Source: Spizellomyces punctatus DAOM BR117
Lineage: Eukaryota
DNA length: 64,000 nucleotides
Assembly (NCBI GenBank): GCA_000182565.2
Contig: KQ257452.1
Direction: 5' to 3' (one strand)
The translations under genes and the position numbers were made by a program. Every line of letters begins with the position of its first letter. Position 1 is the first letter of the stretch. Below the pieces are notes generated by a model, which saw only the letters and a list, made by a program, of their open reading frames with translations, searched no databases and had not been told where the DNA came from. Positions 21,002 to 55,819 of this stretch are shown here, in pieces.

Positions 21002-22596
21002 ATGCATGCTAGCATCGCACTCCGGACATGCATTCCGAGGATCCACGTCGCGATTGGCCCATGTAGGTGGAGTTACTGGAGGTTACTTGGAGGCCTTTTA
21101 TATACTCATATGGTATGTCGATAGGTTTAGAAGCGTATCGCTCCGCGATCAACACAACCAATTCAAAGGACAGGATAAAGGAACTTGGCAGTGTTTGCGG
21201 GGCCAATGTAAATGTGACACGGCATCGAACAGAGGCACACCTTGTTCGACAACTGGTTGAACTCTTTGATCAAGAAAAGCCGGACTTGATTATTTTGAAT
21301 CCCGGAATATTAGCCCGGGTACGCTGGTTTTCTGGTTTTGCTGGTCTGCCCGATCTATCCCAACATTCCAATACTTTTACATTTACGTAGGGCGCTGTCG
21401 TACTCAAAGGTGTACTGCGCGAAATACATGCACAAGCAGCGGAATGCAAGCAAGCGGTGAATATCCAAGAAGTTATTCCCAAAGTTCTAGATCCATCAGA
21501 TCTGACTTCACTGTGTCCGGCGGGCTCTATTCAAAATCTCGGCGATGCTTCGTACAGTATCGCCATCACGGAATTTTGTCGGAAATTCCATGAAGCCCAG
21601 GCCAAGGCCGCGCTTGCTAAGACTAACGTATCAGAATCGGATCCTGTGCAGGACGAGAACCCAAGAAATGCAACGGTAACTGGGAATAAGCCAGCGGAAT
21701 CCAGAATGACTGATCTTCAGTTCCAGCCAAAACTTTATTCCCGAAATCGAGCCGTGCAGGCTGCGGTTATTGCAGAATCGATACGATTGGATAGATACCC
21801 CTTAGGGGATGAAGACGAGGAAGAAATCCTGCAACGCAACTCTGAGGCGTTTGCCAAATCAGCTCTACTTGGTGAAGGGGACAATGAAGATGGTGAACAG
21901 GTCGCAAGTACTTTGCTCGCCTCAACGTCTGAACAACATCGCGAAGAAATGACGGAAGGAAATGTCCCTGCGATCACAAGCTCGTCGCAACATTCCGTCG
22001 CTAAAGGACAATCCAAGCAGAGAGGATCAAAAGATCATGCCACCAGATTCTCAGAGCATGTTGCGCGAAAACAATATGACAGGGAGTGGAGGAAAGGAAG
22101 GGAGGTCACCAGAAGCCCGGCAGAGGATTCCACACCGAAACGAGAATGGAAAAGTAGAAAGCGAATTTCAGAAAAAGTTGCCCAAGACACCTTACCTCAA
22201 GACACTTCTGAGGCCCCCGCAAACGAGACAATACCGCAGCGTCCACCACGGCGCACCATAACCGTCCTCGCACAATCAACACCTTCGTCACCGACCTTTG
22301 AAAGAAGAGAGATCACACCACAATCAACACCTTCGTCACCGACCTTTGAAAAAAGAGAGATCACACCACAATCAACACCTTCGTCACCGACCTTTGAAAA
22401 AAGAGAGATCACACCAGATGGACCCGATTATGAAAAGATTGCAGATGAATCTTCGTGGCAATCTCCAAATACTATTTCCGAGCAAATCAATGGTCAACGC
22501 CCAGCCGCAGGAGATTATCTGAATCTATTTGAAGAACAATACTTTGGAGAGCTCATCGACAAGCTTGAACGGTCGACATCCACAAAAGACTGGTAG
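21002..22596 (+). CDS. Type II dehydroquinase-like N-terminal domain fused to a disordered, repeat-containing tail
   Basis: Introns 21063-21124 and 21319-21390 give IHVAIGPCLEAY...TEAHLVRQL...DLIILNPG...GAVVLKGVL...IQEV...GSIQNLGDASYSIAI, colinear with the AroQ/QutE consensus. Start codon uncertain. Confidence 0.6.
22273..22416 (+). repeat. Coding tandem repeat, 3 x 48 bp (QSTPSSPTFE[R/K]REITP)
   Basis: Three near-identical copies of caatcaacaccttcgtcaccgacctttgaaa(g/a)aagagagatcacacca. Confidence 0.97.
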
Positions 22597-24066: not shown

Positions 24067-24149
24067 TGGGTGCTGTGAGATTCGAACTCACGCCTCCGGA
24101 GAGACTACGACCTGAACGTAGCGCCTTAGACCAACTCGGCCAAACACCC
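24067..24149 (-). tRNA. tRNA-Leu(CAG)
   Basis: GGGTGTT...AGCACCC acceptor stem, D-loop TGGCCGAGTTGGTCTAAGGC, anticodon arm CTACG-TTCAGGT-CGTAG, long variable arm, T-loop GTTCGAATC. Confidence 0.97.
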
Positions 24150-39533: not shown

Positions 39534-40619
39534 ATGCCAATCATTTACGGCCTGGTCGCCCGAGGCGCCATCATCCTCGCCGAGCATGCAACGACAACAG
39601 GAAACTTTACCACTGTCACCCAACACATTCTCGAACGCCTACCGGAAGGCGATTCGAAAATGACGTTTGTTTACGATAGGTTTGTTGTTTTGAATATTGT
39701 GTTAGGTGCCATTGAACAGTTGGCTGACGGTATATTGGACTATCAGATATCTATTCCATTACATTAGCCGCAACAACATTACGTATCTCTGCTTAGCTGA
39801 CGATTCATTTGGTCAGTAGATTGGGCGACCATGACATTTTTTCACACCGAACTTACAAATCTCTTGCACAGGTCGTCGCCTCCCATTCGCATTCCTGGAA
39901 GATATCTCCCGCCGCTTCGAAAATGCATATGGAGATAGAGCCCAAACAGCGATTGCATATGGGTTGAACGAGTTTTCCAAAGTGATTGCAACGCAGATGG
40001 TGGGAATTGTCTACATGTTGAGCAAAAATGGTCCATCACTAAATACATGTCGTACCACTGTTTAGGAGTATTACTCAAACAACCAGGGTGCAGACCGATT
40101 GAGACAGGTGCAAGGAGAGATTGATCAAGTGCGAGATGTGATGGTGCACAATATTGGTACGTCTGCCTATCCTATGAATGAACCAACCGCTATCTTCGCA
40201 CGCTGCTAACATCATTCCGATGATTAGAAAAAGTTTTGGAAAGAGGCGAACGCATTGAGATCCTCGTTGACAAAACCGACAATCTAAACCAAACCTCTTT
40301 TGCCTTCAAGAAACGCTCAACGGCTCTTCGTCGACGAGAATGGTGGAAAAACACTCGGTTGATGATCATTCTCGTTGCTGTTATCTTTCTGGTCATTTAC
40401 TTTACCGTTGGAGCTTCGTGTGGGTTCCCTGGATTCCACAAGTGCATTGTGGGTAGCTGTTTTATTTTTGATTGACAAGCTTGGTGTTTTAACTACTTAT
40501 GATAGGGTTCTGACTCCGCCAACAATGTCACGTAAGTCATATCCTAGCATGCGCTGTACGTGTTACACATGTCCCTAACGAGATCCTGTAGGCCAAACTC
40601 TGCTCAACTGCTGGAATAA
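39534..40619 (+). CDS. VAMP7: Longin R-SNARE VAMP7/SYBL1
   Basis: MPIIYGLVARGAIILAE longin start, [41 protein letters not shown], WWKN plus a transmembrane segment. Confidence 0.93.
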
Positions 40620-40934
40620 CGTCTCCCTTCCGTTGATGAGGACACGTAGATTTGCGTCATTTGCAAGTTTGCCACTTGTGCTTGTACCTCTGTTTGTAAA
40701 AAGCGACATATATGTGAATATAAGATCTTGTTTGAACATATTGGGGAGGTTGTTAACGGAAACTCTCGGGTGGACATTTAAATGATTGTGATACGATGGA
40801 CTATGAGCTGCACCGACTCTGGATACTTGGTGATGAGACGTGAAATTGATATCCTCCTACAGTCTTGTTCACTATAGAGTAATTGATGTTTGTCTTTCTT
40901 TTTGTCATATTCGTAACGTCAGTCGTTGATATCT

Positions 40935-41400
40935 TTTCTTTTCATCCTTTTTTCACAATTGGTCTATGACCAGTGCCAACGCAACTATCAGTCCATCTCA
41001 GCCAGGTCCTCCCTCAGCCCGAAGACATATTGGGTATAGCAGCCGCCCCAACCATCGCGACTGCAGTCCATGCAACCACCCACATGCAACATAGTACGAT
41101 CCAGGTCCTCCCTCAGCCCGAAGACATATTGGGTATAGCAGCCGCCCCAACCAACGCGACTGCAGTCCATGCAACCACCCACTCAGGCCCTCCCTCCGCC
41201 CGAAGGCATCATTGGGTTATATCCCTCCGCCCGAAGGCATCATCGGGATATAAGTAGCTGCTCCACACCAGCGCAGACTACAGTCCATCTCAACCACGGG
41301 TCCTCCCTCCGCCCGAAGGCATCGTCAGGTATACCTCCGTCCGAAGACATCATTGGTATAGCAGCCGCCCCAACCATCGCGGGTCTGCAGTCAGCGTCAA
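40935..41400 (-). ncRNA. Putative structured ncRNA: four units plus a partial unit containing six UUCG-capped k-turn-type hairpins
   Basis: Unit = GGACT + stem-loop + one or two [CCC-RAT-GAT-GYC-TTCG-GRC-GGA-GGG] + AGGRCC; compensatory changes in the stems; upstream TATA box; no reading frame is maintained across units. Confidence 0.55.
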
Positions 41401-41436
41401 CCGGTGAAGTTCAAAGCAGGGGGACAAGGGAAGTGT

Positions 41437-41450
41437 GCCTTTTTATAACC
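41437..41450 (-). promoter_or_regulatory. TATA box (GGTTATAAAAAGGC) of the left unit
   Basis: Identical 14-mer to 42303-42316 in inverted orientation; ATTGG (CCAAT) about 100 bp upstream. Confidence 0.65.
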
Positions 41451-41762
41451 GAGGGCGACTGCGCGTTTGGGGTTGTGGGGCAGGGCATGCAACGTAAGCT
41501 TTTCTCTCGAGAAGACGATGACGTTCTAGTCCCTTGAGAGTAGCACCAATCGACGTTGATTTGTAGAACGTGCTTCTACCCCTGGCATCTCCTTGACGCG
41601 CTCGTTCTTCTGCGGAAATTCACGACGAACCTTCTCGACCGACTGCGACCGCCGTAAAACAACTGGACATTAAAACGACATTGAGCATTGAAAGGCTGTC
41701 CATATCCTGCATTGCCTGCTGTTGATATGTGCAAAACGGTCGTTTTCATCCTACTCGAGTAG

Positions 41763-42118
41763 CGTGGGAAAAAGATAAATAAATGACTAACGCGCTCACA
41801 TAGTCATCACACCTTCAAAAGGGGGTTTAATCCAGGAGGGCGACCGCAGGGCTTCTTTTTTGAACATTCGTACAAAACCTATCTGATCACGATTAACTGC
41901 TCAAAGGGGCACTGGAGCACCGACCATCTAGTTGCTGTCGGGTTATGCGAATATTGACAGAGCTTTTTCGAGTGCGACAAACCCCCACATCTAGGCTCGA
42001 CGGAGAGCGATCCTTAAGCAAAACAAGTACTGGACATCCTTTGCTGTCTGTGCATACGATATTCGTCTTTCATATCGTTCGGGCAGGACCGTGGGAAAAT
42101 CAAGATAAACAAATGACT
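41763..42118 (+). promoter_or_regulatory. Duplicated composite motif CGTGGGAAAA..AGATAAA.AAATGACT (41763-41788 and 42090-42118)
   Basis: Direct repeat between the divergent TATA boxes. Confidence 0.55.
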
Positions 42119-42302
42119 CGCTTCATCACGCGTTTACATAATCTTGACTCGCGCGCGTGTGCAAGGGGAACGAACGCATGCCAGGAGGTGAAAACGACGA
42201 CGATGATTGGGCGTTCATGGCGTGCTCAGAAGAATGACGTACGCAGGATACGGAATCTTCCGCCGAGAATTCCGAATGGCAAAAAAAAGCGCAGTTCCCC
42301 AG

Positions 42303-42316
42303 GGTTATAAAAAGGC
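42303..42316 (+). promoter_or_regulatory. TATA box (GGTTATAAAAAGGC) of the right unit
   Basis: Inverted copy of 41437-41450; preceded by GCGCAGT and ATTGG as in the left promoter; followed by a pyrimidine tract. Confidence 0.65.
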
Positions 42317-42339
42317 GACCCTCTCTCGCATATCCCCGC

Positions 42340-42610
42340 ATTTCTCTTCATCTTTCCTTCCGCCTCGGGATGGCATAAAACTCGCTCCAGCCATGGGTAC
42401 TGGCGTAAAACTCAACTCGGTCCAAAAGTATACCGGATAACTTTAAAGGCCGTTGTAGTAATGCAACGTGATAACCTCTTTGAGGTGGGCGCCTGGGACT
42501 GATCGTGTGCGCGCGCCAGAAATGGTAGGAGCAACGACTCGCCGGAGCCTTCGGGCGATGATGGCATCCTCTTCGGGGGAAGGGCCTGTGATAAAGGATG
42601 AAAAGGATGA
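42340..42610 (+). ncRNA. Putative structured ncRNA or 5' leader with a permuted k-turn and UUCG/GAAA tetraloops
   Basis: GGACT + stem containing GCCA-GAAA-TGGT, then GCC-GGA-[GCC-TTCG-GGC]-GAT-GAT-GGC, TCCTC-TTCG-GGGGA, AGGGCCTG, and a trailer shared with the left unit. Confidence 0.5.
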
Positions 42611-42699
42611 AAATGATTGCTAGCCAAACTGCCGTTGAAATCCTATCCAGACACACTCTCAAACGAACGCGATATTGCCTACAAGGCAACGCTCACTTT

Positions 42700-45600
42700 C
42701 TTCCCGCGTGGAACCGACACAGAAATACAACCCTATTATCCACCTGTATACGGCAGGATGTTACTACAAGAGTATGAATGGGTGAACCATAGCGCTGACA
42801 CACACGTTAAGCACGATTCATGAGGGCCGCTCTCGACAAACGAAATAAGTGATCTTGAATAAAACGAGCTGCCCCATATTGGAAGGCACAATTGTGTCGA
42901 CATCCATGAAACCTTGAGAGATTCTGGGTCCGTTTTCCGCCATAGGACACCATTGAGTGGTCCTCACAGCACTGGATGCGCTGATGTGAACGCTTTTAGT
43001 TCGTATCATATCGCTGCACACAATCGACTATTGGATATTTTACTGTTGAACTGCGATGCAAAACTGTTCATTGTTATGTTAACAGATCTGATAAATTGGA
43101 TTGTTCCATTTTTGTGTGCGGATGCGATGCAGGGCTGCCGATGGATAAAAGGATTCTCTGATTTCATGATTGATAATGCGATCCTGGTAAACTAGATGCC
43201 ATCTTGAGAATTATGTGATGCTGATTTAGCTGTCTTTATCTCGGAATCCGATCCCTATGATAAAGTCCTGATGCTGATAGTTATAGCCCTGTTGTGGATG
43301 AAATAGTTCTTTACTTTCCTGCAGATTCAAGCCGACCCTCTTCCTCGAATCTCTGACGTAGCTGTTCGAAACCAAATTGTCAGCAAATGACTCCAATAAG
43401 CTCCCCAGTCGGCCATCAAAGTTGCAAGGTAGGGCATCTATTCTGCAAACCTTATTCGAGGGTGTGGGTTCGTTGATAGTCTATGTCGCAGGCCTGAACC
43501 ATGGAGATCAGGCATGCTTATAATGCTAATGGCATTTACAACCATGCTTTAAGGACTGGAATTCCGGTTTATGTCTTCTTCCTATGGATATTTGCTTCTC
43601 GAGACCACTTTTTTCCTTTGGAATTCCAACACTCCCGCAAAGAATGGGCTATTTCCATCATGTAGCATGTTTCCTCTCAATAGAAAAAAGTATGCCAGAA
43701 GCTCTTTCTTTCTCGAACGCACTTTTGCCAACGGTGGGTTCTAATCCTGTTCAAGGTATCGTCTCAACCATAACCATTAGCTTAAGAAAGGAATATCTGT
43801 AATTTATTTTCAGTTCGCACACATTCGGGTAGCCAAACATCGTGAAGATTTTAGATCTTTAGAGCACTTTATACATCCTTTGGTACATTATTTATTTTAC
43901 ATGTCCTAGGGTCACCAGCTACTAGATGTTTTTCATTAAACACCTGGGGACAATATGACAGCTGATGAAAGATTGAGGCGGAGGCCAAAATTGATTCATA
44001 TGCTTTGCTTATTGTCTTTAGAAACAAGCATCTTACGCTGAAAATGGACCTTGAGCGCAAAAGGTGCACAAACCCGCGTCTGGTGAGGGATGCACCCTCC
44101 CGACGACAACAGGGAACCCCAAAAAAGAAACGCATCAATTATGATAGATATTAGGAACATGTATGACCAGATGCGCTGCCCAGGGATTTCGTGAAATGAT
44201 CCAAATGCAAACTTTATTGTTCGCAATTATCTCCAAACGGATTGTACAGCCTGGAACTGATTATCCAGGACATAATATACTTCCAATGCAATTAATATCC
44301 AGGATTCATGCTAGCATCGATACCATCAACGTCAATGTATGTGGTCGATGCCTTCTCTCAAAGCACAAATAATTATTGGTTTAAAGGTGCTCTCGATAAT
44401 CCCACTGCGAACAGTGACAGAGGTGTCATGCCAAGACCATTTTGCTCTCACTCCTTTAATTGGAAAGTGCTGGCAGGAACTGATGATCCAGGTAAGGTTA
44501 TATCATCGTTTATTAATCACACTCACAAGCTCTCGGTCAATAATTCTGCAGCCTAATGATTGAGTGTGTGTAGTGGGAGTATATTCTAGAATAAGGCTTT
44601 GCACCGACGATATCCTATGACTTGCTTGACGATAGGCGAGTCAAAGTTTTTCAATCAGACATTTAGCAATGTTGACTCAGTCGGAGTGATGCATCGGTCG
44701 ACTTGTCTTGTACTCTCTCGATGATTTCGGAAGTGATACATGTCGAGTGCTTGGATTGTGGGGGAGGACACTTGTTCTCGTTGGCAAATTGGAGATGAAA
44801 TAGAAGCATTACGTTGGAGCATCATAGCAAGTTGCAACTTTAGGATAAGGTATGCTACAAGTTCAATGTGCATGACATCCCTTGCGCCCGATCTTGCTTT
44901 AAGAACAAGTTTCGCGTTACTTTCCAGCTAAACGTCTTAAAGCAAGTATCGAATCCCAAGAGAAACAAAGTTCTAGCATGTGAACATGCTTTGTCGGATC
45001 ACCGGTCCTATGTGGTCTGGCAAGACTTTTCACCCGATTTATCTATCCCGCAGATTAGTGAGAATGTCCTTTATTGCGGACATCAGATATACTGCTTTTG
45101 CGAACGAAATGCGTTATGTACTAGAAGAAACAATTGACATGTAAGCTATGGCAGGGAGCGTTAACTAATCATGCAGGTATGCGTAAGGATGGTATCAGGC
45201 CGAAAACATTGTGTTTTGTTTCAAGAATCATTGAAACTATTCACAGAGCATATTGGAGCACAAGTCGCCATCATTGAATAAGGCCAATCATTCGAAGGAT
45301 ACATTTATGCAATCTTGTGTTGAGAAGCTGATGTCTACGGAAAGGCGTTCATAGTGAGCTTTCACATATTGATAACCGACCGGATTATGTAGCAGATGGA
45401 GAGAAGGTACTCGAGTGTGCTTTACACATGACGGATGACCAGGAACAAAATTCAAGTTGGCGGAAAAAGAACTGTACAAATGCGTGTGAAGAAAGCACTA
45501 TGACGCTCGATTTTCTGTTTTCATTTCGGCAAAGATGAACAGCATTAGGGTCTCACAGTTACTAGGCCCAATTTTTTCAACTCAGCATGCAACATTTGCA

Positions 45601-46995
45601 TATAACCATTGAATTCAGAGGCAAACGCTTCAGCCTTAGATAGAACGCTGTAAAGCGTTGGTGACAACGAGACGATCGTGCCGTTGCCAAACTGCCTCAC
45701 TCAAGAACCTCGATCCTCGTCATGTTGAAATGATAATTGCTAGTACTCGCTCCGATGGAACCGATCAAAAAATAGGATGGCAAAGGTGTCACGAATGATC
45801 CGTCAATTAAATAGCGCTCTGATGTGACATAAGTACCGATCTAGATCTAGCTTGCTGAAATGAGTACAAGTGAGGTCATTATAATCATGTCTTCTTTGCA
45901 TGTTGATTCTTCGCTTGAGACGAATTTTCGTCTTTATTTAATCGAAGGAACCCGAGATTTAATTGATGCAATGGATATCAACAAAGGGGCCAAACTAAAT
46001 GTCGATATGTTATGCTTTCAACGTGCCTACTGCCGAAAAGGCAAATGTTGCAGCTACAGTGTCAACCGGTCGCACCAGACGTGATGTCGGTGCTCTCCAC
46101 GCGACCAAAGGATCTCTCTGATGTGGTCGTTCAAGACTGGATAGTAAACAGCAGACGTCAGAATAGTCCACTAAAAGTATTCCACATTCTTTCATCATAT
46201 TCAGTTCAGTTGGTGCAGGTAAAAAGCACATTCGCAAAGATTATCTCAAGGAGATCACGACACTCTGCTGCAGGACAGGAAATAAACCGTGCAAACAAAA
46301 ATGGTGTAGACGGCATTTTCGAGATCTGGTAGATAAAAGTGATTTTACAAACCCGTGTCCCGAGTCAGACGTACTCTGGTCATCCGTGGTGAGAGCGGTC
46401 AGTTGATGAACGCTGCACACAATGCCCTGATCAGCGGGTGCTAAAAATGTCCCCGAGTACGATTCCTACATCTTTGTGCACGTCATTAGCATTACTCCCT
46501 TTCGCGCAGAGCATTTGTTACTAATCCCGAGCCTATAATATACAAAGATATCTCAAATATAATTGATACTGCGGCTCAAAACGTCGGTTTCTCAGAGAAT
46601 ATGACCGAGTTGAAGATCGCTCTTAACGACGCCGATTTTACGAGTATCAGTCTCGTTCTTCTGGCGTGTACAGAGAGTAGCGGCATGTCTGCACAACATC
46701 GTGTACTCTTTGTTTGTGAAGCAGAGGCGGGACGAATCTTGCAACCAGGGTGCAAAAAGGCGTTCCTCAGGCTAAATGAGGAAGATATTTGTTATTCCCC
46801 ACATTTCTATCTTCAGAGTCTTATGTTCGTTTGTATGACAGCCGGATGAATATCTTGTATTCCAAAGGAACGATAATGTCATGCCCGTGCCAGTGTATGA
46901 CATGCCTATTATCCCTGGCTTTGATGATAAAACTGCACATAGAGATAGGATCCGTTAAACGTACTCGTGAATTTATATTTCCTACCCGCACGTAA
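42700..46995 (+). pseudogene. Probable heavily decayed large gene(s), unidentified
   Basis: Lower GC and no long ORF, but protein-like fragments and an intron-like element gtaagc...ctaatcatgcag (45141-45176). Confidence 0.3.
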
Positions 46996-47418
46996 AAATA
47001 TGGAAGCAACTTTAAAACTTAATCGCTTCCATACTTATTTAATTACTAGTCCCAGCACAAATGTTTAAACCAGAGCACGTGCAAACCTCTCACGAGCATT
47101 TCGAAAGTGAAGGTTAAAGTTAAAGTTACTGACATAATTAACATACATAGTGTGGCGGTGATTGAAAATGGCACTAGAACTCATTATTATCCGGATTAAT
47201 CCGGTTAGTCATATCGCATAATCAGCACCCCCTCTGTCGCCCAAAGCGGTGAGGCATGCAGCGGTGTGGCATGCTAATATGATTTTTTTTTTTAAACTGC
47301 GGTGAGGCGCATGCCAAAGGTCTATAAAAGGGGGGCCTTCTGTCTCTTTCCTCTTTACCCATCCTCGACTCTCGAAGCATCTGCGCAACGCTCACGCAGC
47401 ACTCTCAAGTCCATCATC

Positions 47419-47701
47419 ATGAGAATGCCGCTCTGGTGCCGAGGACCTCGCCCTCCCGACAAAAACAACATAACCCCTTGCAAACGCTGCTACTACTATG
47501 CTGCAACGATCGCAGGTATGCATTATCTTTGTATTTTCCCACGCGGATTATCCAGTCTAATTCTGATCTACCTTAGTATCTGAACATCCTCCGACAAAAG
47601 AATTTCGGAATCAAGGGCTTAGTAGGATTTCTCGCGTGGTGGTGGGCTTAGTTACCCGGTTAGAAACAACCGTAATGTATTGCATGTGTAATTGGGCCTA
47701 G
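47419..47701 (+). CDS. Small 2-exon ORF (73 aa), MRMPLWCRGPRPPD..., paralog A
   Basis: TATAAAA at 47323, phase-1 GT-AG intron 47516-47576, homology to 54888-55221. Confidence 0.45.
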
Positions 47702-54887: not shown

Positions 54888-55221
54888 TCAGTGCCTCCAC
54901 CACACGCAGTCCCTACTAGGCCATGATCTGGAACTCTTGATGGCATTGAAGCCAGACTCTTGCATCCAGGAGCGAATCGACTGGGCAGCATCACAAGCAA
55001 GAGTATGTTCAGTAACGAAGGCTTGGAGACTATAAACTGCATGTCAGAAGATGACCCGATGACAAGAAATGCAAGAAATGCCCTTGATATATACCAACCA
55101 AGCTCAACAAATGTGGCAGCATAATAGCAGGTTTGTTAACGGATCCAATTGGTTGCAGCTGGTTCTGATCGCTGTTGCTGTCGGGGGGACGAGGACCTCG
55201 GCACCAGAGCAGTATTCTCAT
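54888..55221 (-). CDS. Small 2-exon ORF (91 aa), MRILLWCRGPRPPD..., paralog B
   Basis: TATAAA at 55306-55311 (minus strand), phase-1 GT-AG intron 55037-55094, homology to 47419-47701. Confidence 0.45.
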
Positions 55222-55819
55222 GGTGGACTGAGACTTGAGCGTTGGGCAGATGCTTCGACAGTCGAGGGATAAAGAAACAAGATGGGGGGAAGAGGAAGAG
55301 GGGGGTTTATATGGAAAAACTGAGTCGATAATATTGAGTCATGCAGGTGGCAACTGGAATATTCCTCTCATAGATGGCCGCAAGGGATAGTATCCGTTCA
55401 TTGCCGCAGGTATTGGACCCGTTTTTCATACTGGCCACACATATTGGACCCGTTTTTTCATGATGGAGCATCTCTGTGGGTATAGTTCATTTGCCTAAAT
55501 CGAGGGAGGCATCTTGCATTTCATCTCATTCGATCCAGTGGCTGCATCTGCAGACTGACAGTCTTTCACTATGTTTGCTCTCATGACTGCGCCATGTCCG
55601 AGACGTGTCCGAAAGGACTATGAAGTTCGCCTGGTGGACCTTTTTTCTCCTTTCTGCCAGAAACCTTTTTCCCCAGATCCTGCGCGTTCTCACACCTGCG
55701 CAGTCCCGCTCCTCGTCGCCATCCATTCACACACTCGTTCTCCACTCCTGCGGCCCTCGGTGCAAATCCCCTCTCAAACCTCGGTTGATTCCCGACAATT
55801 CTTTGTTAAAGCCAAAGCC

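What the first reader, a model, noticed from the sequence alone, without database searches (positions are those of the whole stretch)
42340..42610. Divergent paralogous unit carries the same k-turn in circularly permuted orientation
Seen on the plus strand: the same architecture as the left units. GGACT (42496) is followed by a stem GA-TCGT-G-TGC/GCA-ACGA-C-TC enclosing a GCCA-GAAA-TGGT GNRA hairpin. Next come GCC-GGA-[GCC-TTCG-GGC]-GAT-GAT-GGC (42541-42565), TCCTC-TTCG-GGGGA and AGGGCCTG. Here the UUCG caps the canonical stem rather than the non-canonical stem, so the k-turn geometry survives despite strand swapping. Further hairpins lie upstream (TGGC...GCCA, CGTTGTA...TGCAACG, ACCTC-TTT-GAGGT). 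Inference: selection acts on RNA structure, not on a DNA repeat. It could alternatively be the structured 5' leader of the decayed gene downstream.
Basis: partly seen in the sequence, partly recalled or inferred. Interest (0 to 1): 0.8.

Follow-up and report, generated by a model that had tools for sequence, protein, structure and literature searches.

The report
Abundant small fungal RNA with k-turn hairpin
The flagged stretch is a real, strongly expressed, roughly 220-260-base non-coding RNA gene of a fungus-like eukaryote that matches no catalogued RNA family and carries a textbook kink-turn protein-binding motif, wired the other way round from the four copies in its neighbouring sister gene.

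Summary
42541-42565 (+) reads GCCG-GA-GCC-UUCG-GGC-GAU-GA-UGGC, a full k-turn consensus with the loop on the canonical stem. The sister unit (40950-41396, minus strand) has four hairpins with the loop on the non-canonical stem.

Stranded RNA-seq shows a discrete plus-strand transcript at about 42340-42600, depth 245-905. Depth is 6 just downstream and at most 1 in the 800-base spacer. The left unit is transcribed on the minus strand. This is an RNA gene, not a gene leader.

Both units share a TATA element and a 3' box. Read variants and alternative contig flanks point to a multi-copy family.

No Rfam family matches, and no Pfam family matches the ORFs scanned.

Chance gives a k-turn consensus in about 2% of shuffles, and three tetraloop hairpins in 0.1%.

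Weak points:
- Energy models put the k-turn pairing at about zero probability in the full-length RNA.
- A near-isoenergetic local alternative exists.
- No orthologues were found, so protein binding (Snu13/L7Ae type) is inferred.

The parts
42285..42316 (+). Shared promoter arm of the right unit. It includes GGTTATAAAAAGGC (42303-42316), a TATA-like element about 30-60 nt upstream of where coverage starts.
   Evidence: Inverted repeat I3 with 41437-41468, 84% complementary. The 14-mer has 3 matches with up to 2 mismatches; 0 of 100 shuffles reached 3. blastn of 41405-41468 against 42350-42285 gave 72% identity, E 7e-5.
42340..42600 (+). Right-unit RNA. The transcribed body is about 220-260 nt and the ends are approximate.
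   Evidence: X9 sense-strand depth by bin: 245 (42301-42400), 683, 905 (42501-42600), then 6.4 (42601-42700). Antisense depth is 0-1.2. The X1 RNA-library contig of 214 nt covers 42377-42590 with 0 differences.
42451..42468 (+). Hairpin CGUUGUA-GUAA-UGCAACG, with a GNRA loop.
   Evidence: Sequence. It is present in all MFE folds. It appears in the tetraloop scan. A paralogue variant changes GUAA to GGAA (42459 T>G).
42474..42486 (+). Hairpin ACCUC-UUU-GAGGU.
   Evidence: Sequence. It is present in the MFE folds.
42496..42540 (+). GGACUG module start, followed by hairpin A: stem 42501-10 / 42531-40 enclosing GCCA-GAAA-UGGU (42515-26).
   Evidence: Pair probabilities are 0.98-0.99 in the local fold of 42490-42600 but about 0 in the full-length fold. 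GGACUG recurs at 4 left-unit module starts (41286, 41168, 41069, 40994; a fifth, at 41395, reads GCUGACUG).
42541..42565 (+). Permuted k-turn: NC strand GCCG, GA, C stem GCC-UUCG-GGC, bulge GAU, GA, NC strand UGGC.
   Evidence: Descriptor hit. Strand table. Local energy is -10.0 against -10.5 for the rival pairing. This is the most deeply covered part of the RNA, depth 1347-1520 at 42556-42571.
42567..42580 (+). Hairpin UCCUC-UUCG-GGGGA.
   Evidence: Sequence. Pair probability is 0.83-0.88 in the 42377-42590 fold. The paralogue variant 42571 C>U keeps a U-G closing pair.
42581..42614 (+). AGGGCCUG module end, then the 3' box AAAGGATGAAAAG (42593-42605, repeated at 42602-42614). Coverage ends here.
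   Evidence: 4 matches in the window, and 0 of 100 shuffles reached 4. Depth collapses after 42600.
41437..41468 (-). Shared promoter arm of the left unit, with GGTTATAAAAAGGC at 41437-41450 on the minus strand.
40950..41396 (-). Left-unit RNA, made of repeated modules.
   Evidence: minus-sense depth is 16, 81, 358, 368 and 835 across 40901-41400, and 0.64 in 41401-41500. Repeat families D1, D2 and D9.
41192..41357 (-). Four consensus k-turn hairpins of the ordinary order (C stem, 3-nt bulge, GA, UGYC-UUCG-GRCG, GA, C stem): H1 41333-57, H2 41305-29, H3 41223-47, H4 41192-16.
   Evidence: The H3 k-turn secondary structure is the MFE of 41184-41262.
41011..41133 (-). Two 99%-identical modules whose UUCG hairpins (41110-33, 41011-34: CCC-AAU-AU-GUC-UUCG-GGC-UGA-GGG) have lost the 5' GA.
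   Evidence: (D1).
40938..40950 (-). 3' box AAAGGATGAAAAG of the left unit.

Best explanation
42340-42600 (+) is one gene of a lineage-specific, multi-copy family of abundant small non-coding RNAs in a fungus-like eukaryote.

Shown:
- The RNA is made from its own TATA-type promoter (42303-42316).
- Coverage ends at a shared purine-rich 3' box.
- It is not part of any mRNA.
- It has a divergently transcribed sister gene about 850 bases away, behind the same promoter and 3' box.

Inferred:
- It folds into a row of tetraloop-capped hairpins.
- Bases 42541-42565 form a box C'/D'-like kink-turn (CGGA ... AUGAUGG around a GCC-UUCG-GGC stem).
- This k-turn is the docking site for the cell's L7Ae-family protein (Snu13/15.5K type). 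The protein nucleates and stabilises an RNP, as it does on U4, U3 B/C and box C/D RNAs.
- The sister RNA carries four such sites in the ordinary C/D order and would be multivalent.
- The swapped strand order, with identical core letters and compensated stems, argues that the three-dimensional motif is what is being kept.

The downstream function of the RNP is unknown.
For: Transcription:
- The synaptobrevin gene next door (Pfam PF00957 on the + frame) has GT..AG joints read by 46 and 62 first-mate-on-+ reads and 0 on the minus strand, so the first mate reads the sense strand.
- The right unit has 245-905 sense depth against 0-1.2 antisense.
- The spacer 41401-42200 has at most about 1.
- Downstream 42601-43200 has 2-7.
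- X1 (RNA library of a root metagenome) holds only a 214-nt contig, 42377-42590, with 0 differences.

Family:
- 14 listed variant letters in 42423-42589 occur at 10-55% of reads.
- Loose ends occur at 42375, 42408 and 42531 (184, 208 and 376 reads).
- Two X3 contigs cover 42477-42603 (3-4 differences each), and an X3 loose end shows sequence unlike the window beyond 42603.

Paralogy.

Non-coding:
- No Pfam hit for any of the 5 ORFs scanned (4 overlap the units, 1 lies just downstream).
- No protein relatives of the 113-aa antisense ORF.
- The short sense ORFs differ in frame and length between copies: 13, 45 and 33 aa (reading of A1).
- The 33-aa ORF's stop (42621-23) lies beyond the coverage end.

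Structure:
- z -2.68.
- Tetraloop hairpins in 2 of 2000 shuffles; k-turn in 103 of 5000.
- Core strands identical to H3, with three both-sided pair changes.
- Left hairpin A and the UUCG stem keep pairs through 3 both-sided changes.
- The H3/H4 junction matches the k-turn segment of Rfam's SAM-I model, positions 15-40, E 2.6. This is not significant and only illustrates the motif.
Against: - No protein binding, RNA end or cap was measured.
- Energy models do not favour the k-turn pairing. Probabilities are 0.000-0.002 in full-length folds. The cost is +4.5 to +8.4 kcal/mol when forced, though only +0.3-0.5 locally.
- The rival pairing UCGCC/GGCGA uses the same bases.
- Modules folded alone are not more stable than shuffles.
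- The five k-turn instances come from one locus and share descent, so the compensatory changes are few events.
- Two of six left hairpins have lost the consensus.
- No orthologue was found, so no independent covariation test was possible.
- Much of the read depth comes from paralogues. Most reads at the left unit's 5' edge carry other letters beyond 41395/6 (605 + 398 reads), so expression of these exact copies is less certain than expression of the family.
- No canonical terminal box C/D pair and no Sm site were seen by eye.
Confidence: 0.55

Rival explanations
1. It is a transcribed, multi-copy repeat family (selfish or neutral) whose hairpins are simply stable GC hairpins. The 'k-turn' in the right unit is then a leftover of shared descent or recombination between repeat modules, it folds otherwise (UCGCC/GGCGA helix), and no protein recognises it.
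For: - The rival helix is the MFE in every context folded.
- The k-turn consensus arises in about 2% of shuffles.
- Modules are shuffled between paralogues, as shown by the loose ends.
- Adjacent ordinary hairpins automatically create a permuted register, seen at 41205-41231.
- Two left copies have already lost the consensus.
Against: - The core 8 + 5 letters are identical to H3 while the flanking stems differ by three both-sided changes and no one-sided break.
- The 3b-3n U-G and the -1 C-G pairs are kept.
- The k-turn module is the most deeply covered and most widely shared part of the family (depth 1347-1520 against about 400 upstream).
- Nearest-neighbour models give no credit to tandem G-A pairs (established knowledge, recalled), so their preference is weak evidence.
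Confidence: 0.22
2. It is an unusual box C/D-type guide snoRNA. 42543-46 (CGGA) and 42559-65 (AUGAUGG) would be its D'/C' pair, and the adjoining single strands would guide 2'-O-methylation.
For: - The D'-then-C' order with a short capped stem is how internal C'/D' motifs are arranged (recalled knowledge).
- A CUGA lies at 42499-42502, and GUGAUAA / AGGAUGA lie at the 3' end.
- The RNA is abundant, discrete and Pol II-type, like independently transcribed fungal snoRNAs.
Against: - No snoRNA family scores anywhere. The only C/D model listed is a 17-nt antisense fragment at E 4.4.
- There is no RUGAUGA near the 5' end paired with a CUGA near the 3' end by a terminal stem.
- At 220-260 nt it is long for a guide snoRNA.
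- rRNA of this organism was not available, so no target could be sought.
Confidence: 0.12
3. It is the structured 5' leader of a downstream (decayed) gene, or a short mRNA for a micropeptide.
For: Small ORFs exist: 33 aa from 42522, and 15 and 13 aa upstream. The left and right copies both begin MVGA.
Against: - Coverage drops 140-fold at 42600, and no joints leave the unit.
- The 33-aa ORF's stop lies beyond the coverage end.
- ORFs are not conserved in frame or length between copies.
- No Pfam or protein relatives.
Confidence: 0.04

Closest known systems
Internal box C'/D' motif (k-loop/k-turn) of box C/D snoRNAs, and the U3 snoRNA B/C motif
   Same: The GA-bearing D'/B-like strand (CGGA) comes first and the C'-like strand (AUGAUGG) second, around a short capped stem. 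There are tandem sheared G-A pairs and a non-Watson-Crick 3b-3n pair. The expected binder is Snu13/15.5K. The family knowledge is recalled; the layout here is.
   Different: There is no terminal C/D pair, no U3 boxes A/A'/GAC, and no Rfam snoRNA or U3 hit. No guide target is known. 3b-3n is U-G rather than U-U.
U4 snRNA 5' stem-loop k-turn
   Same: The left-unit hairpins read C stem-AAU-GA-...-GA-C stem with the loop on the non-canonical stem. This is the U4 layout with the same AAU bulge (recalled).
   Different: There is no U4 Rfam hit. No U4/U6 pairing regions or Sm site were seen. The NC stem has 4 bp and a UUCG loop, not the short stem and pentaloop of U4 (recalled).
SAM-I riboswitch P2 k-turn (Rfam RF00162)
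   Same: It has the permuted order with the loop on the C stem. The H3/H4 junction 41205-41231 aligns to model positions 15-40.
   Different: E 2.6, 14.7 bits against a gathering score of 44.4, and only the k-turn segment aligns. That family is a bacterial cis-regulator; this is a free-standing eukaryotic RNA. Motif likeness only.
Independently transcribed multi-copy small nuclear/nucleolar RNA gene families
   Same: Conserved external promoter with a TATA element, a conserved 3' box, a discrete abundant 200-450-nt product, and several genomic copies.
   Different: No sequence or structure match to any of the 4227 Rfam families. Bodies are built from shuffled, tandemly repeated modules.

Membership tests
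k-turn (kink-turn) motif | Canonical stem, 3-nt bulge, tandem G-A / A-G pairs, then a non-canonical stem, with both strands reading GA 5' to 3'. | tested here: met
   42541-42565 fits with a 3-bp C stem, GAU bulge, GA/GA and a 4-bp NC stem starting U-G. H1-H4 fit in the other order.
k-turn (kink-turn) motif | The motif actually folds: kinked geometry induced by metal ion or protein. | not testable with these tools
   Energy models give it probability about 0 globally and a near tie locally. Probing, FRET or binding assays are needed.
k-turn (kink-turn) motif | Stems covary while the GA dinucleotides stay fixed across homologues. | tested here: inconclusive
   Across 5 instances the GA is invariant and 3 pairs changed on both sides between the left type and the right type. 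All instances are from one locus, and no orthologues were found.
Box C/D snoRNA | Box C (RUGAUGA) near the 5' end and box D (CUGA) near the 3' end, joined by a terminal stem. | tested here: not met
   No such pair in 42340-42600. The only C/D-like pair is internal and in D'-C' order.
Box C/D snoRNA | Match to a curated snoRNA covariance model. | tested here: not met
   None at gathering score, and none meaningful at E up to 10.
Box C/D snoRNA | A guide of 10 or more nt complementary to rRNA/snRNA, ending 5 nt upstream of D/D'. | not tested
U3 / U4 / RNase P / MRP / SRP / telomerase RNAs (known k-turn or abundant small RNAs) | Match to the Rfam model. | tested here: not met
   cmscan of the whole window and of the two units found only a tRNA at 24067-24149.
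Protein-coding gene or leader | A conserved ORF, or continuity of the transcript with a downstream coding region. | tested here: not met

The most novel reading that the evidence does not exclude
A previously undescribed class of fungal RNP. It would be a multi-copy family of abundant Pol II small RNAs assembled from shuffled modules, whose defining element is a Snu13/L7Ae-type k-turn hairpin. That hairpin is present singly (permuted, C'/D'-like) or as a tandem array of four or more (C/D-like). The array would give a multivalent k-turn-protein platform or sponge with a function outside rRNA methylation guiding. It would also be a natural example of a k-turn kept through circular permutation within one gene family.
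Probability: 0.3. Interest if true: 0.75.

Novelty: new variant of a known kind. Interest (0 to 1): 0.58.

Why it matters
If the k-turns are real protein sites, this is an abundant eukaryotic RNA family built around the Snu13/L7Ae docking motif that is neither a guide snoRNA, U3 nor U4. That would widen the known clientele of a core RNP protein.

It would also offer a natural experiment: the same core letters in two strand orders, one to four copies per RNA. This bears on what a k-turn needs in order to be kept.

It also shows that raw-sequence reading picked out a genuine, unannotated, highly expressed RNA gene pair.

Tried and rejected
1. Rfam at gathering score on the whole window, and at E up to 10 on 40500-44500, 42300-42650 and 40900-41450. 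Only a tRNA and chance fragments came back.

2. The whole genome is not held.

3. Metagenome scan with a stem-tolerant 20-specified-base pattern of the k-turn plus the next hairpin. It returned one GC-rich bacterial-looking contig (L001) with no other likeness, which I take as chance.

4. Prokaryote genome scans with the right-type 21-mer gave 1 hit in a Dehalococcoidia MAG (L002, not examined, presumed chance). The left-type 23-mer gave 0 hits.

5. Protein search with the 113-aa antisense ORF, as a proxy for mis-called paralogues, gave none.

6. Runs X2 and X3. X2 holds only spacer 41965-42212 at 90-95% likeness. X3 is of unknown kind. I use them only as hints of extra copies, not for habitat or expression.

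7. Paper searches: the motif strings gave 0 papers. Searches on k-turn / Snu13 / fungi / permuted terms gave listings only, with nothing on such a family. No paper was read.

8. Other places in the window with the promoter or 3'-box words (23617, 6566) are an ordinary gene TATA and an unrelated stretch.

9. Reading the paralogue variants in hairpin A (42502, 42504, 42505) as compensatory was dropped. No partner changes are listed, and 11 rows were not shown.

Full report
**Setting.** The window is eukaryotic and fungus-like.
- It carries a synaptobrevin gene. The ORF 40236-40475 matches PF00957 at E 2e-21.
- RNA reads show two introns of 57 and 60 nt with GT..AG ends.
- There are long ORFs for an acetyl-CoA-carboxylase-like protein and others (the naming is my own reading).
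- No whole genome is held.

**The observation.** In RNA terms the plus strand reads, in order:
- GGACUG (42496).
- A stem 42501-10 / 42531-40 around GCCA-GAAA-UGGU.
- GCCG-GA-GCC-UUCG-GGC-GAU-GA-UGGC (42541-65).
- UCCUC-UUCG-GGGGA (42567-80).
- AGGGCCUG.
- Upstream: a GUAA-capped 7-bp hairpin (42451-68) and ACCUC-UUU-GAGGU (42474-86).

**K-turn descriptor scan.** The descriptor required 3-bp C stems, a 3-nt bulge, GA/GA, a 3-5-bp NC stem and a 3-8-nt loop, in both strand orders.
- It finds the permuted k-turn at 42541-65.
- It finds four ordinary ones on the minus strand of the left unit: H1 41333-57, H2 41305-29, H3 41223-47, H4 41192-16.
- Elsewhere in the 64 kb, both strands, it hits 9 loci.

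**Comparison with shuffles.**
- 103 of 5000 shuffles of 42340-42610 give any k-turn hit, and 48 of 5000 give the permuted type.
- 2 of 2000 shuffles have at least three 4-bp UUCG/GNRA hairpins.
- The whole unit folds at z -2.68; 1 of 200 shuffles folded as well.

**It is a gene for an RNA.** I laid a stranded RNA-seq run of the same species label (X9, raw reads) on 40201-43200.
- The synaptobrevin introns are read only by first-mate-on-+ reads (46 and 62, against 0). First mates therefore read the sense strand.
- The right unit has sense depth 245, 683 and 905 in the three bins 42301-42600.
- The next bin has depth 6.4. The antisense strand has 0-1.2.
- The spacer 41401-42200 has at most about 1.
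- The left unit is read on the minus strand only: depth 16 to 835 across 40901-41400, and 0.64 beyond.
- A second RNA library (X1, root metagenome, contigs) holds just one piece of the 3 kb. It is a 214-nt contig equal to 42377-42590 with no differences.
- This rejects the leader reading. It fits a promoter about 30-60 nt upstream.
- Exact ends were not resolved; table 6 lists none.

**Two sister genes, and more elsewhere.**
- The two units face away from each other.
- Each sits behind one arm of a 32-nt inverted repeat that contains the identical GGTTATAAAAAGGC.
- blastn aligns 41405-68 with 42350-42285 at 72% identity, E 7e-5.
- Each ends at the identical AAAGGATGAAAAG.
- MAFFT lines the right body up collinearly with the left modules: GGACU ... 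AUGGU-GG-GC ... CCUUCGGGCG ... GGRCCUG.
- In X9 many positions carry a second letter in 10-55% of reads.
- Hundreds of reads leave the reference at 42375, 42408, 42531 and 41395/6.
- Depth jumps from about 400 (42450-42526) to 1347-1520 (42556-71).
- X3 holds two contigs over 42477-42603 (3-4 differences each), and an X3 loose end leaves the window sequence beyond 42603.
- I read this as several expressed paralogues that share modules, with the k-turn module the most common. A consequence is that part of the depth, especially on the left unit, comes from other copies.

**Not coding.**
- None of the 5 ORFs scanned, 4 overlapping the units and 1 just downstream, has a Pfam family.
- The 113-aa antisense ORF has no relatives.
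- Sense ORFs starting MVGA run 13, 45 and 33 aa in different copies, with different frames after the first six codons.
- The right copy's stop lies past the coverage end.

**The k-turn comparison.**
- H3 reads CCC-GAU-GA-UGCC-UUCG-GGCG-GA-GGG.
- The right unit reads GCCG-GA-GCC-UUCG-GGC-GAU-GA-UGGC.
- The bulged-strand core C-GAU-GA-UG and the other strand's CG-GA-G are identical, but their order along the RNA is swapped.
- In the right unit the UUCG therefore caps the canonical stem.
- Pairs -2 and -3 of the C stem and pair 5 of the NC stem differ on both sides (C-G to G-C). None is broken.
- H1 adds U-A at pair 5 and A-U at pair -3.
- This is the relation between terminal C/D and internal C'/D' (or U3 B/C) motifs, as I recall them.
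- The junction of H3 and H4 also forms a permuted register. Infernal aligns that junction to the k-turn segment of the SAM-I model at E 2.6, which is not significant. This suggests how a permuted copy can arise from a tandem array.
- RNAalifold on the five modules keeps left hairpin A (two both-sided changes in module B) and the UUCG stem (CG, UG, UA). It does not find a common fold for the right unit's hairpin A.

**Against.**
- In full-length partition functions the k-turn pairs have probability 0.000-0.002.
- The MFE pairs UCGCC (42539-43) with GGCGA (42554-58), and builds long-range helices such as GCUCC-A-GCCAU with AUGGU-A-GGAGC.
- Forcing the k-turn costs 4.5-8.4 kcal/mol globally but only 0.3-0.5 in the isolated hairpin.
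- Modules folded alone are no better than shuffles, z -0.61 to +0.56.
- An ordinary-order register (42539-61) with a weak UCG/UGA stem is also possible.
- Two left hairpins lack the 5' GA.
- All instances share descent.

**Comparison with known families.**
- No Rfam family matches.
- The defining terminal C/D pair of guide snoRNAs is absent.
- Searches outside the window found nothing related.
- Paper searches found nothing on such a family. Searches were listings only, and one search returned 0 papers.

**Verdict.** This is a real, abundant, uncatalogued small RNA gene. It is one of a pair in the window and probably one of a larger family. It carries a well-formed k-turn in the permuted order. 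Binding by an L7Ae-family protein and the RNP's role are inferences.

Noticed in passing
window 41758-41788 and 42085-42118 (+): A 31-34-nt direct repeat (82% identical: GGGAAAA..GATAAA.AAATGACT..) lies in the silent spacer between the two RNA genes. X3 contigs and an X2 contig (another organism label) also hold the right-hand part of the spacer (41965-42300), so the upstream 250-300 bases seem to belong to the repeated gene unit. It may be an upstream promoter element.
   Followed up: partly
window 41840-41860 (+): A run of seven T after a GC-rich stretch in the spacer looks like a Pol III-type stop. RNA depth there is at most 0.6 in X9.
   Followed up: no
window 24067-24149 (-): tRNA-Leu (CAG), 83 nt. 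It is the only Rfam match at gathering score in the window.
   Followed up: yes
window 22271-22416 (+): Three 48-nt tandem copies (98-100% identical) lie inside the ORF 21457-22596 and encode a repeated ...TPQSTPSSPTFEKREI... peptide.
   Followed up: no
window 47363-47467 and 55173-55267: Two adjacent inverted-repeat arm pairs (85-94% complementary) lie 7.7 kb apart and bracket a region poor in long ORFs. They may be the ends of a mobile element or an inverted duplication.
   Followed up: no
window 42601-47000: The region downstream of the right unit is AT-richer (41-44% GC) and has no ORF of 180 aa or more. Plus-strand RNA depth is only 2-7 up to 43200. No sign of the 'decayed gene' was found, but it was not searched for by homology.
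   Followed up: partly
L002 601-621 (-): The right-unit 21-mer GGAGCCTTCGGGYGATGATGG occurs once in a Dehalococcoidia MAG contig. I presume chance. Whether it sits in a bacterial k-turn RNA was not checked.
   Followed up: no
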